64,000 nt of DNA, from NCBI GenBank assembly GCA_951406725.2, contig OX597817.1, positions 151,342,001 to 151,406,000 on the forward strand, given 5' to 3'. The first letter of the stretch is position 1. Each line of letters starts with the position of its first letter. The notes below the pieces were generated by a model. That model was not told the DNA's origin. It made no database searches and worked only from the letters and a program-made list of their open reading frames with translations. The position numbers and the translations under genes were made by a program. This document shows, piece after piece, positions 52,536 through 56,194 of the stretch. This DNA is from Octopus vulgaris (taxonomy: Eukaryota).

Positions 52536-55174
52536 ATTAACAATCAAGGAACGGCCATAATAGGCCATTCACCCACTAGAAATAACAGCCAAAAGCTTTA
52601 ACCGCAAAATAACGTCAATTCCGTAAACCAGGAGAAAATTGAAAAACATTTACCCTGTAATTTCTTAGACGATGCACCGTTTCATCTTCTGTTTAATGGA
52701 AAACTAACCTGATTAAATTAAATCAAGCCAATCTACCATAGGCCCTTAGATTCATCAGTAAGAAATAGCCAAACCGGAACAGATATTTTTCACGAGGCAT
52801 TCTCATTGCTACCTCGTCAATATCTGACCTAAAATTTTCAAATCGTCGCACTCGCGCCAAATTTATCGGCAGCAAATAAATATAAGCCGCCGATTCCATT
52901 ACGGAATTAACCAGAAAATTCATAATTAATCAATATAGGGTGGCAAAAAAATTTTGTAGAATTCTTTTGCCACCAGCGGCCTAGTGGGAAAAAATTAAAT
53001 AGTCATAAACCATTTTTAAGTTCAACATTAACAATCAAGGAACGGCCATAATAGGCCATTCACCCACTAGAAATAACAGCCAAAAGCTTTAACCGCAAAA
53101 TAACGTCAATTCCGTAAACCAGGAGAAAATTGAAAAACATTTACCCTGTAATTTCTTAGACGATGCACCGTTTCATCTTCTGTTTAATGGAAAACTAACC
53201 TGATTAAATTAAATCAAGCCAATCTACCATAGGCCCTTAGATTCATCAGTAAGAAATAGCCAAACCGGAACAGATATTTTTCACGAGGCATTCTCATTGC
53301 TACCTCGTCAATATCTGACCTAAAATTTTCAAATCGTCGCACTCGCGCCAAATTTATCGGCAGCAAATAAATATAAGCCGCCGATTCCATTACGGAATTA
53401 ACCAGAAAATTCATAATTAATCAATATAGGGTGGCAAAAAAAATTTTGTAGAATTCTTTTGCCACCAGCGGCCTAGTGGGAAAAAATTAAATAGTCATAA
53501 ACCATTTTTAAGTTCAACATTAACAATCAAGGAACGGCCATAATAGGCCATTCACCCACTAGAAATAACAGCCAAAAGCTTTAACCGCAAAATAACGTCA
53601 ATTCCGTAAACCAGGAGAAAATTGAAAAACATTTACCCTGTAATTTCTTAGACGATGCACCGTTTCATCTTCTGTTTAATGGAAAACTAACCTGATTAAA
53701 TTAAATCAAGCCAATCTACCATAGGCCCTTAGATTCATCAGTAAGAAATAGCCAAACCGGAACAGATATTTTTCACGAGGCATTCTCATTGCTACCTCGT
53801 CAATATCTGACCTAAAATTTTCAAATCGTCGCACTCGCGCCAAATTTATCGGCAGCAAATAAATATAAGCCGCCGATTCCATTACGGAATTAACCAGAAA
53901 ATTCATAATTAATCAATATAGGGTGGCAAAAAAAATTTTGTAGAATTCTTTTGCCACCAGCGGCCTAGTGGGAAAAAATTAAATAGTCATAAACCATTTT
54001 TAAGTTCAACATTAACAATCAAGGAACGGCCATAATAGGCCATTCACCCACTAGAAATAACAGCCAAAAGCTTTAACCGCAAAATAACGTCAATTCCGTA
54101 AACCAGGAGAAAATTGAAAAACATTTACCCTGTAATTTCTTAGACGATGCACCGTTTCATCTTCTGTTTAATGGAAAACTAACCTGATTAAATTAAATCA
54201 AGCCAATCTACCATAGGCCCTTAGATTCATCAGTAAGAAATAGCCAAACCGGAACAGATATTTTTCACGAGGCATTCTCATTGCTACCTCGTCAATATCT
54301 GACCTAAAATTTTCAAATCGTCGCACTCGCGCCAAATTTATCGGCAGCAAATAAATATAAGCCGCCGATTCCATTACGGAATTAACCAGAAAATTCATAA
54401 TTAATCAATATAGGGTGGCAAAAAAAATTTTGTAGAATTCTTTTGCCACCAGCGGCCTAGTGGGAAAAAATTAAATAGTCATAAACCATTTTTAAGTTCA
54501 ACATTAACAATCAAGGAACGGCCATAATAGGCCATTCACCCACTAGAAATAACAGCCAAAAGCTTTAACCGCAAAATAACGTCAATTCCGTAAACCAGGA
54601 GAAAATTGAAAAACATTTACCCTGTAATTTCTTAGACGATGCACCGTTTCATCTTCTGTTTAATGGAAAACTAACCTGATTAAATTAAATCAAGCCAATC
54701 TACCATAGGCCCTTAGATTCATCAGTAAGAAATAGCCAAACCGGAACAGATATTTTTCACGAGGCATTCTCATTGCTACCTCGTCAATATCTGACCTAAA
54801 ATTTTCAAATCGTCGCACTCGCGCCAAATTTATCGGCAGCAAATAAATATAAGCCGCCGATTCCATTACGGAATTAACCAGAAAATTCATAATTAATCAA
54901 TATAGGGTGGCAAAAAAAATTTTGTAGAATTCTTTTGCCACCAGCGGCCTAGTGGGAAAAAATTAAATAGTCATAAACCATTTTTAAGTTCAACATTAAC
55001 AATCAAGGAACGGCCATAATAGGCCATTCACCCACTAGAAATAACAGCCAAAAGCTTTAACCGCAAAATAACGTCAATTCCGTAAACCAGGAGAAAATTG
55101 AAAAACATTTACCCTGTAATTTCTTAGACGATGCACCGTTTCATCTTCTGTTTAATGGAAAACTAACCTGATTA
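52536..55174 (-). repeat. Tandem array of 492-bp HHR-containing unit, 5.4 copies
   Basis: Units start at 52536, 53027, 53519, 54011, 54503, 54995 (partial); the only difference seen is one A-run length; minus-strand HHRs at 52660-52766, 53151-53257, 53643-53749, 54135-54241, 54627-54733. Confidence 0.95.
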
Positions 55175-55346
55175 TATATTGATTAATTATGAATTTTCTG
55201 GTTAATTCCGTAATGGAATCGGCGGCTTATATTTATTTGCTGCCGATTAAATTTGGCGCGAGTGCGACGATTTGAAAATTTTAGGTCAGATATTGACGAG
55301 GTAGCAATGAGAATGCCTCGTGAAAAATATCTGTTCCGGTTTGGCT

Positions 55347-55453
55347 ATTTCTTACTGATGAATCTAAGGGCCTATGGTAGATTGGCTTGATTTAATTTAA
55401 TCAGGTTAGTTTTCCATTAAACAGAAGATGAAACGGTGCATCGTCTAAGAAAT
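55347..55453 (+). ncRNA. Type I hammerhead ribozyme (array copy)
   Basis: Identical to 55839-55945; predicted cleavage after C55445. Confidence 0.88.
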
Positions 55454-55838
55454 TACAGGGTAAATGTTTTTCAATTTTCTCCTGGTTTACGGAATTGACG
55501 TTATTTTGCGGTTAAAGCTTTTGGCTGTTATTTCTAGTGGGTGAATGACCTATTATGGCCGTTCCTTGATTGTTAATGTTGAACTTAAAAATGGTTTATG
55601 ACTATTTAATTTTTTCCCACTAGGCCGCTGGTGGCAAAAGAATTCTACAAAATTTTTTTTGCCACCCTATATTGATTAATTATGAATTTTCTGGTTAATT
55701 CCGTAATGGAATCGGCGGCTTATATTTATTTGCTGCCGATAAATTTGGCGCGAGTGCGACGATTTGAAAATTTTAGGTCAGATATTGACGAGGTAGCAAT
55801 GAGAATGCCTCGTGAAAAATATCTGTTCCGGTTTGGCT

Positions 55839-55945
55839 ATTTCTTACTGATGAATCTAAGGGCCTATGGTAGATTGGCTTGATTTAATTTAATCAGGTTA
55901 GTTTTCCATTAAACAGAAGATGAAACGGTGCATCGTCTAAGAAAT
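55839..55945 (+). ncRNA. Type I hammerhead ribozyme with 68-nt extended stem II
   Basis: Stem I atttctta/taagaaat (8 bp), core CTGATGA (55847-55853), stem II atct/agat plus inner hairpin, GAAAC (55922-55926), stem III ACGG-tgca-TCGT, GTC triplet; predicted cleavage after C55937. Confidence 0.88.
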
Positions 55946-56194
55946 TACAGGGTAAATGTTTTTCAATTTTCTCCTGGTTTACGGAATTGACGTTATTTTG
56001 CGGTTAAAGCTTTTGGCTGTTATTTCTAGTGGGTGAATGGCCTATTATGGCCGTTCCTTGATTGTTAATGTTGAACTTAAAAATGGTTTATGACTATTTA
56101 ATTTTTTCCCACTAGGCCGCTGGTGGCAAAAGAATTCTACAAAATTTTTTTTGCCACCCTATATTGATTAATTATATATATATATATATATATA

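What the first reader, a model, noticed from the sequence alone, without database searches (positions are those of the whole stretch)
52536..56175. Young array of a 492-nt self-cleaving unit: candidate large retrozyme / circular RNA element
Seen: about 7.4 near-identical 492-bp units inside an (AT)n tract, each with one fully canonical type I hammerhead (8-bp stem I, CUGAUGA, GAAAC, GUC) on one strand only, and no transposon ORF. Established: metazoan non-LTR retrozymes are tandem HHR repeats whose transcripts self-cleave to monomers and circularise, reported mostly at about 150-400 nt and thought to depend on PLEs. Inference: this is a larger, (AT)n-targeting, very recently inserted cephalopod member; read-through transcription would release 492-nt monomers. 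I cannot confirm from sequence alone that the family is undescribed.
Basis: partly seen in the sequence, partly recalled or inferred. Interest (0 to 1): 0.92.

Follow-up and report, generated by a model that had tools for sequence, protein, structure and literature searches.

The report
Two-armed ribozyme retrotransposon with Penelope footprint
This is a non-coding mobile repeat with a hammerhead ribozyme motif in every 492-base unit, inserted as two back-to-back arms that end at two different fixed sites, a pattern that likely records a Penelope-type enzyme copying one RNA (probably a circle) from both cut DNA strands at once.

Summary
The repeat, the hammerhead motif, the (AT)n target and the lack of an ORF are real, but it is not one tandem run. 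It is 5.4 units with the ribozyme on the minus strand, back to back with 2.0 units on the plus strand. This is the family's rule. Two-armed copies end at fixed site E1 on one arm and E2, 106 nt further on, on the other: 36 of 36 top loci and 33 of 33 in an unbiased sample, never E1/E1 or E2/E2. That is the Penelope-like element (PLE) 'inverted copy plus tail' signature. Both arms share a haplotype (35 of 36). Arm inner ends pile up just after the predicted cut site (18 of 66 against 10 of 233), and both arms stop there together. Best reading: a non-autonomous retrozyme copied by a PLE enzyme from both nicked strands on one RNA; cleaved linear RNA gives dead mini-copies and circles give long arms. 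Two sister families share a folded cis-module and the same rules. A 492-nt unit is not unusually large. No helper PLE was identified. Cleavage, circles and expression were not shown directly.

The parts
52536..55177 (-). Left arm: 5.4 head-to-tail units, sense on the minus strand; its 3' end (site E1, unit position 132 counted from the cut) abuts (AT)n at 52536
55175..56175 (+). Right arm: 2.0 units, sense on the plus strand; its 3' end (site E2, unit position 238) abuts (AT)n at 56175
55172..55178 (.). Inner junction joining the 5' ends of the two arms (unit positions about 442 and 223), 3-nt overlap
52515..52536 (.). (AT)n target, left part; it is the end of an older related element
56173..56195 (.). 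(AT)n target, right part
52660..52766 (-). Type I hammerhead motif, predicted cut after C52668
53151..53257 (-). Type I hammerhead motif, predicted cut after C53159
53643..53749 (-). Type I hammerhead motif, predicted cut after C53651
54135..54241 (-). Type I hammerhead motif, predicted cut after C54143
54627..54733 (-). Type I hammerhead motif, predicted cut after C54635
55119..55174 (-). 3' half of a hammerhead, cut off by the inversion junction
55347..55453 (+). Type I hammerhead motif, predicted cut after C55445
55839..55945 (+). Type I hammerhead motif, predicted cut after C55937
56013..56175 (+). Terminal copy of the shared cis-module, present in every unit: conserved 16-nt motif 56013-56028; outer stem P1 56026-56033/56108-56115 enclosing hairpin P2, site E1 (about 56069) and hairpin P3; hairpin P4 56122-56158; site E2 56175. 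The fold is predicted.

Best explanation
This is a non-coding, hammerhead-bearing mobile element whose insertions consist of two back-to-back arms ending at two fixed sites 106 nt apart, likely made when a Penelope-like (PLE) RT-endonuclease nicks both strands of an (AT)n tract and primes both nicks on one RNA, which for long arms is probably a circular monomer. Shown by the sequence: two outward-pointing arms; one E1 and one E2 end per two-armed copy; (AT)n at the 3' ends; 1-8 nt overlaps at most inner junctions; one haplotype on both arms; arm ends piled just after the predicted cut site; a shared motif upstream of E1 in three families. Inferred steps: (1) transcription through an arm; (2) self-cleavage to 492-nt monomers, some ligated to circles; (3) binding of a PLE protein dimer to the module, each priming site lying just 3' of a predicted hairpin; (4) one nick primed at E1 and the other at E2 with 2-3 nt of AT pairing; (5) the two cDNAs joined by microhomology and filled in. 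Because both sites are internal, a cleaved linear monomer would yield only a dead copy of about 330 bp without the ribozyme core. Only a circle or an uncleaved multimer can regenerate whole units.
For: Top 40 loci: 37 two-armed, 36 of 36 classifiable are E1+E2 (p=3e-11). Unbiased stretch C1:1-104.4 Mb, 53 insertions: 33 E1+E2, 16 single-armed, 4 with one odd end, no E1/E1 or E2/E2. Sister families: 16 of 16 (C) and 7 of 7 (B) classifiable two-armed copies are E1+E2. Three two-armed copies of autonomous PLEs in this genome also have one tailed and one untailed end (L095, L097; L100). Arms share a haplotype in 35 of 36 comparable loci, against a mean of 21.4 discordant in shuffles. Variant-by-locus cases: 48 fixed in all covering units, 13 intermediate, 101 single-unit, as a one-unit bottleneck predicts. 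Stops within 30 nt after the cut: 18 of 66 arms on first pass against 10 of 233 in flanking windows (p=4e-7). Both arms stop together (7 both, 14 neither, 3 discordant; p=7e-4). Later passes give 3 of 40 and 1 of 68. B+C repeat the first-pass pile-up at their own cut sites, 7 of 33 against 2 of 87 (p=0.0016). 166 of 167 ribozyme cores are unchanged. Frangieh 2024 (PMC11167929): a PLE protein cuts and extends both strands, starts at two internal sites that define the tail, and is predicted to be a dimer.
Against: No autonomous PLE carrying the module or any similarity to the unit was found among three young families and several old ones. The tail here is 106 nt against 30-40 bp in described PLEs and 40 nt in the 781-aa family. 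The absence of later-pass stops is less clean in B+C (2 of 5); pooled unbiased A+B+C gives 5 of 45 against 25 of 99, p=0.075, so linear dimers may contribute. 13 intermediate variant patterns do not fit a pure monomer circle. Frangieh found cleavage dispensable and uncleaved RNA the main template in vitro, and no difference in start site between strands. The pile-up spreads over 1-28 nt and a transcription start at the same place would mimic it. About 30% of copies (16 of 53) are single-armed.
Confidence: 0.63

Rival explanations
1. Same two-nick, two-site priming, but long arms are copied from uncleaved or partly cleaved linear multimers, or grow by local tandem amplification after insertion; no circle is needed.
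For: Uncleaved RNA was the dominant template for a PLE in vitro (PMC11167929). Later-pass stops at the cut in B+C are 2 of 5. There are 13 intermediate variant patterns. Li 2026 favours local amplification and found cleavage in only 1 of 9 elements tested.
Against: New variants are fixed across whole arrays and both arms (48 cases, 6 private to one locus). Family A later passes show near-background stops (3 of 40, 1 of 68). Arms of up to about 10 units end exactly at E1 or E2 with under 1% divergence.
Confidence: 0.2
2. The unit is the pseudo-LTR of an ORF-bearing PLE that was not sampled (for instance a Naiad), and these loci are its truncated products.
For: The footprint is entirely PLE-like. 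Li 2026 found 24 of 57 Xenopus retrozyme families homologous to known repeats, nearly all PLE termini. Octopus Naiads with (TA)n preference are listed in Craig 2021 file S1 and were not searched for here.
Against: None of the 93 family loci examined (40 top, 53 unbiased) runs from the unit into a PLE ORF; arms continue unit into unit for up to 10 copies.
Confidence: 0.08
3. The second arm arises by fold-back self-priming of the first cDNA (model in Arkhipova 2013) or by L1-type twin priming on a linear RNA.
For: A few junctions are perfect palindromes (L036, L048, L253, L266, L281, L285). L247 and L265 look like L1-type twin priming. Family C has a junction hot spot at a natural inverted repeat.
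Against: Fold-back needs the second arm to lie within the first. That is impossible for 13 of 32 unbiased pairs (one is a duplicated locus) and 5 of 36 top pairs. Twin priming needs one arm to start where the other ends: 2 and 5 of 36, with 3 expected by chance. 0 of 55 unit-specific variants are shared in register (weak if they are assembly errors).
Confidence: 0.06
4. The inversion or the array is an assembly artefact or an ordinary satellite.
For: Copy number at this locus was not checked with long reads, and single-unit variants may include assembly errors.
Against: The same design occurs on more than 20 contigs with different junctions and two fixed, different ends, in three families and in autonomous PLEs. 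The head-to-tail joint stands in contigs of three of four public runs laid (one may be the source sample).
Confidence: 0.03

Closest known systems
Metazoan non-LTR retrozymes (Cervera & de la Pena 2020, PMC7229834; Li et al. 2026 preprint)
   Same: Non-coding low-GC tandem units, each with a type I hammerhead; dispersed monomers to multimers; unit size within the 51-972 bp range of Li 2026.
   Different: Described as head-to-tail repeats only ('inverted' occurs 0 times in PMC7229834 and only in a reference title in Li 2026). Here most copies are two inverted arms with fixed, different ends. A shared cis-module is visible, whereas the 2020 review (PMC7761336) says these repeats show no conserved motif pointing to the helper.
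EN+ Penelope-like elements (Penelope/Poseidon, Neptune, Naiad; Arkhipova 2013, Craig 2021, Frangieh 2024)
   Same: Inverted 5'-truncated copy at the 5' end, a tail at one end only, microsatellite target, microhomology at the inner junction, type I hammerhead upstream of the priming sites.
   Different: No ORF; tail of 106 nt instead of 30-40; both arms can be many units long; no sequence shared with the three young autonomous PLE families found here.
Non-autonomous Chlamys elements such as MRC1 (Craig 2021, passage)
   Same: Non-autonomous PLE partners that form multicopy head-to-tail insertions.
   Different: Those generally resemble their helper at the 3' end, and that group lacks canonical hammerheads; the E1/E2 pairing rule was not seen in the passages read.
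L1 5' inversion by twin priming (recalled)
   Same: Two target-strand primers on one RNA give back-to-back arms joined by microhomology.
   Different: In L1 the second primer site is variable and adjoins the first arm's end. Here both sites are fixed and the arms overlap in template and exceed unit length.

Membership tests
Non-LTR retrozyme | Tandem units each with a type I hammerhead motif | tested here: met
   7 complete motifs in the window; 166 of 167 covered cores unchanged in 40 loci. Motif match, not an Rfam hit.
Non-LTR retrozyme | No protein coding, GC under about 45% | tested here: met
   Longest stop-free frame 68 aa; GC 35.8%.
Non-LTR retrozyme | Dispersed copies showing mobility | tested here: met
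   946 candidates, more than 20 contigs among the scored ones; 402 E1 and 656 E2 ends on the forward strand alone.
Non-LTR retrozyme | Self-cleavage of the RNA | not testable with these tools
   Only indirect: arm ends pile up after the predicted cut in three families.
Non-LTR retrozyme | Accumulation as circular RNA | not testable with these tools
   Only contigs were available, which cannot tell a circle from tandem DNA.
Non-LTR retrozyme | Loop 1-loop 2 tertiary contact of canonical type I hammerheads | not tested
   Stem II is extended by about 60 nt; no tertiary model was built.
Autonomous EN+ PLE | ORF with RT and GIY-YIG endonuclease | tested here: not met
   None within or continuous with any of 93 family loci.
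PLE-mobilised element | Inverted 5'-truncated copy adjoining the 5' end | tested here: met
   37 of 40 top loci; 37 of 53 unbiased insertions.
PLE-mobilised element | Tail extension at one end only | tested here: met
   E1+E2 in every classifiable two-armed copy; 106 nt, longer than the 30-40 bp described.
PLE-mobilised element | Microsatellite or AT-rich target | tested here: met
   (AT)n follows the E1/E2 ends at all 40 top loci.
PLE-mobilised element | Sequence shared with the pLTR of an autonomous PLE | tested here: inconclusive
   Not met for the 781-aa, L100 and about 1,080-aa families or older fragments; Naiads and other unsampled families not tested.
PLE-mobilised element | Target-site duplication or loss at the empty site | not testable with these tools
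   The target is a pure (AT)n run and no empty allele was in hand.
L1-type twin-priming inversion | Outer end of the inverted arm adjoins the start of the direct arm in the RNA | tested here: not met
   2 and 5 of 36, 3 expected; two exceptions, L247 and L265.

The most novel reading that the evidence does not exclude
These arrays are a genomic record of the whole PLE insertion cycle. An asymmetric RT-endonuclease dimer docks on a two-hairpin RNA module, primes both target nicks at two dedicated sites on the same circular RNA, and rolls round it twice in parallel. The PLE 'inverted pLTR plus tail' would then be the general product of this two-primer reaction, the ribozyme-made circle would be obligatory for propagation, and the module would be a portable cis-signal for PLE-driven, AT-targeted integration of circular RNAs.
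Probability: 0.4. Interest if true: 0.85.

Novelty: new variant of a known kind. Interest (0 to 1): 0.64.

Why it matters
How PLEs make their tandem and inverted insertions, and which enzyme moves animal retrozymes, are stated as open in the papers read (PMC8557442, PMC7761336, Li 2026). This family turns both into counts: a strict one-E1-one-E2 rule, co-stopping of both arms at the ribozyme site, and a conserved folded module that names what the helper should bind. It gives a short defined RNA for the existing in vitro PLE assay, and a test that can be rerun on coral, mussel, axolotl and Xenopus retrozymes. Each two-armed copy is also a long inverted repeat (1 kb here) that would form double-stranded RNA if read through.

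Tried and rejected
Rfam: no hammerhead hit in the window at gathering score, none at E<=10 on the unit or on family B. Helper search: GIY-YIG scan (150 of 6136 candidates scored); 781-aa, L100 and L102 families; an old broken family; the very large family of about 1,080 aa; PLE fragments in 1.31 Mb of held DNA; 35 unpaired ends. None shares the unit or the module. The ORF beside L150 is a separate broken insertion. Craig 2021's held supplement text had no motif match, and its hits were metadata rows. Expression: no RNA holder listed; four runs laid were contigs only and not decisive. Cross-family MAFFT alignment was too poor downstream of the motif for pair counting, and within-family divergence was too low, so no covariation statistic is claimed. 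The cut-site pile-up is absent from the top-40 set (4 of 76 arms, ratio 0.8), which was selected for full units. My hand tally for families B and C double-counted arms spanning two units and is superseded. No A-to-G excess among single-unit variants (3 of 108). The sigma-70 scan is not relevant to this host. Two look-ups of earlier findings returned nothing.

Full report
OBSERVATION. Tandem Repeats Finder gives two blocks, 52536-55174 (5.4 x 492) and 55175-56175 (2.0 x 492), and the second is the reverse complement of the first. The hammerhead motif is on the minus strand five times and on the plus strand twice, with one further 3' half at the junction. The arms point outward, both 3' ends run into (AT)n, and the 5' ends meet with a 3-nt overlap. 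There is no ORF (68 aa at most) and GC is 35.8%. The ribozyme has an 8-bp stem I, a stem II enclosing a long hairpin, and a 2-3 bp stem III with a palindromic loop. The active fold costs 3.2 kcal/mol over the minimum-energy fold, and two loop-III segments pair at -18.1 kcal/mol, so it may act as a dimer (dimer cleavage for such motifs is described in PMC4209133, passage). Rfam does not detect it.

FAMILY. The unit has 946 candidate places; the best 40 were scored and I examined these 40 loci (39 fetched plus the window). Numbering the unit from the base after the predicted cut, 3' ends fall at 128-137 (E1) or 233-244 (E2), always followed by (AT)n. 37 of 40 loci are two-armed; 36 have two classifiable ends and all 36 are E1+E2 (p=3e-11 against free choice); one has an odd end. 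Because this set favours long copies, I used exact end patterns, which give 402 E1 and 656 E2 ends on the forward strand (reverse-strand matches are counted several times per site, so about 800 and 1,300 is my inference) and 252 copies of the young ribozyme half. On C1:1-104.4 Mb all 18 back-to-back pairs are E1+E2. The 35 unpaired ends resolve into 15 more E1+E2, 16 single arms and 4 with one odd end (one search's merge classes one complex locus differently, giving 32 pairs). None is E1/E1 or E2/E2, and none leads into an ORF. Older subfamilies are 90-98% identical to the window unit, so the family is long-lived and this copy is young.

WHAT THE PATTERN MEANS. An inverted 5'-truncated copy with a 30-40 bp tail at one end only is the described PLE signature (Craig 2021, PMC8557442, passages; Arkhipova 2013, PMC3846280, passages). 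Frangieh 2024 (PMC11167929, parts 1-2 of 4) showed that a PLE protein cuts and extends both target strands and starts at two internal RNA sites that bound the tail. Autonomous PLEs in this genome show the same: a 781-aa RT + GIY-YIG family (Pfam) has ends 40 nt apart, with one of each in both two-armed copies among the ten fetched, and L100 does too. Fold-back is impossible for 13 of 32 unbiased pairs (one a duplicated locus) and 5 of 36 top pairs. L1-type twin priming is not enriched (2 and 5 of 36, 3 expected).

ONE RNA, TWO KINDS OF TEMPLATE. Arms agree in haplotype in 35 of 36 comparable loci; the exception is a single third allele, and 10,000 shuffles gave 21.4 discordant on average and never under 12. 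Of 162 variant-by-locus cases, 48 are fixed in all covering units (6 private to one locus, 4 of these on both arms), 13 are intermediate and 101 are single-unit (homopolymer columns and positions 126-138 left out). This fits a one-unit bottleneck followed by re-expansion, though a homogeneous parent array would look the same. In the unbiased set (83 arms; duplicate L287 and arms with odd ends dropped), 18 of 66 arms that reach the 30 nt after the cut stop there, against 10 of 233 in flanking windows (p=4e-7). Among 24 pairs both reaching it, 7 stop together, 14 both pass and 3 differ (p=7e-4). On later passes only 3 of 40 stop, and 1 of 68 in the top set from the third pass on, so it is not a structural pause that recurs in every unit. 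Against this, sister families give 2 of 5 on later passes, and the pooled unbiased contrast is 25 of 99 against 5 of 45, p=0.075. A transcription start could mimic the pile-up, but it tracks the cut site in three families whose cut-to-E1 distances are 132, 187 and 193 nt (B 5 of 16, C 2 of 17, together 7 of 33 against 2 of 87, p=0.0016, which replaces my faulty hand count). Family B there is 14 of 30 coordinate-ordered loci after removing overlaps; family C is 29 of the 30 best-scoring loci.

CIS-MODULE. Families A (this one), B (644 bp) and C (about 606 bp) differ in sequence but share the motif TTG(G/A)CTGYTATTTCTA 45-65 nt before E1. Their predicted folds agree: an outer stem enclosing a hairpin, E1 and one or more hairpins, then a long hairpin followed by E2. 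Each priming site thus lies in AU-rich single strand just 3' of a hairpin. These are single-sequence folds; no covariation statistic was obtained.

HELPER. Not found. Three young autonomous families (781 aa; L100; about 1,080 aa with 11156 candidates) and older fragments lack the unit and the module. Only the top-scoring candidates of each search were seen. Naiads with (TA)n preference are listed for Octopus in Craig's file S1 (two rows seen) and remain untested.

PRIOR WORK. Cervera 2020 (PMC7229834, passages) defines non-LTR retrozymes and proposes PLEs as helpers; 'inverted', 'orientation' and 'polarity' do not occur in its main text. The 2020 review (PMC7761336, passages) already proposes circle-templated multimers and says no conserved motif points to the helper. 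Cervera 2014 (PMC4209133, passages) proposes circles for PLE tandems. Li 2026 (parts 1-3 of 5 and a term search; supplements not seen and may list relevant families) supports PLE origin by phylogeny in vertebrates, gives 51-972 bp units, and does not mention tails or inversions. PMC6962438 (passages) only counts hammerheads in a squid genome. Searches found no report of two-armed retrozyme insertions or of an E1/E2 pairing rule; the library lacks most subscription papers and I could not query Repbase or Dfam.

VERDICT. The element is a non-LTR retrozyme by every sequence feature tested and bears the PLE insertion signature; it is not an autonomous PLE. Its size is ordinary. What is new, as far as my searches reach, is the architecture and what it records: two fixed priming sites used once each, on one RNA, with traces of both cleaved-linear and endless templates. 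Cleavage, circularisation, expression and the helper are inferred, not shown.

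Noticed in passing
window 23231-24601 (-): Family B: 2.1 copies of a 644-bp unit with the same 3' module and its own hammerhead (CUGAAGA core, GUU triplet, stem II about 100 nt; one window unit has UUGAAGA). 1442 candidates in the genome, with the same two-arm rule.
   Followed up: partly
L101:6550-6845, L181, L184 (G000): Family C: unit of about 606 bp, hammerhead with CUGAGGA core and GUC, same module, ends about 108 nt apart; 2056 candidates. 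Many inner junctions fall in a natural inverted repeat upstream of the motif.
   Followed up: partly
window 52009-52515 (+): Older module-bearing element with a decayed hammerhead; the (AT)n run at its end is the target into which the 492-bp array inserted.
   Followed up: partly
window 25571-27680 (+): 5'-truncated copy of a very abundant young PLE (11156 candidates, 149 of 150 listed matches at 98%, ORF about 1,080 aa, 4.47-kb unit, minimal hammerhead-like motif near 27546); it lacks the module.
   Followed up: partly
L093:1244-6460 (G000:C6): Young PLE with a 781-aa RT + C-terminal GIY-YIG frame preceded by a second, overlapping ORF of about 480 aa with no Pfam match over cut-off; 504-bp pLTR, 40-nt tail, (AT)n target, no hammerhead found by my motif scan.
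   Followed up: partly
window 29039-29352; L061, L108, L206: A short repeat in (AT)n carrying the same 16-nt motif about 40 nt before its end; possibly a mini-element using the same helper.
   Followed up: no
window 16770-16905 (+); L049, L077, L078, L098, L200, L206, L208: Further unrelated hammerhead-like motifs, one (L078) in a 489-bp fold-back ending in (AT)n; the genome holds many such families.
   Followed up: no
L247, L265: Two insertions whose inverted arm ends at a non-standard site adjoining the start of the direct arm, in non-(AT)n flank: the L1-type twin-priming pattern.
   Followed up: no
top-40 loci: Arms of 130 nt or less: six on the E2 side, none on the E1 side, as if E2-primed synthesis sometimes stalls on reaching the E1 hybrid; the set is selected, so this is a hint.
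   Followed up: no
runs X15, X2, X16, X17: Close relatives of the unit occur in runs labelled as three different organisms; three of the runs show a variant with GUA at the cut, as older subfamilies here do.
   Followed up: no
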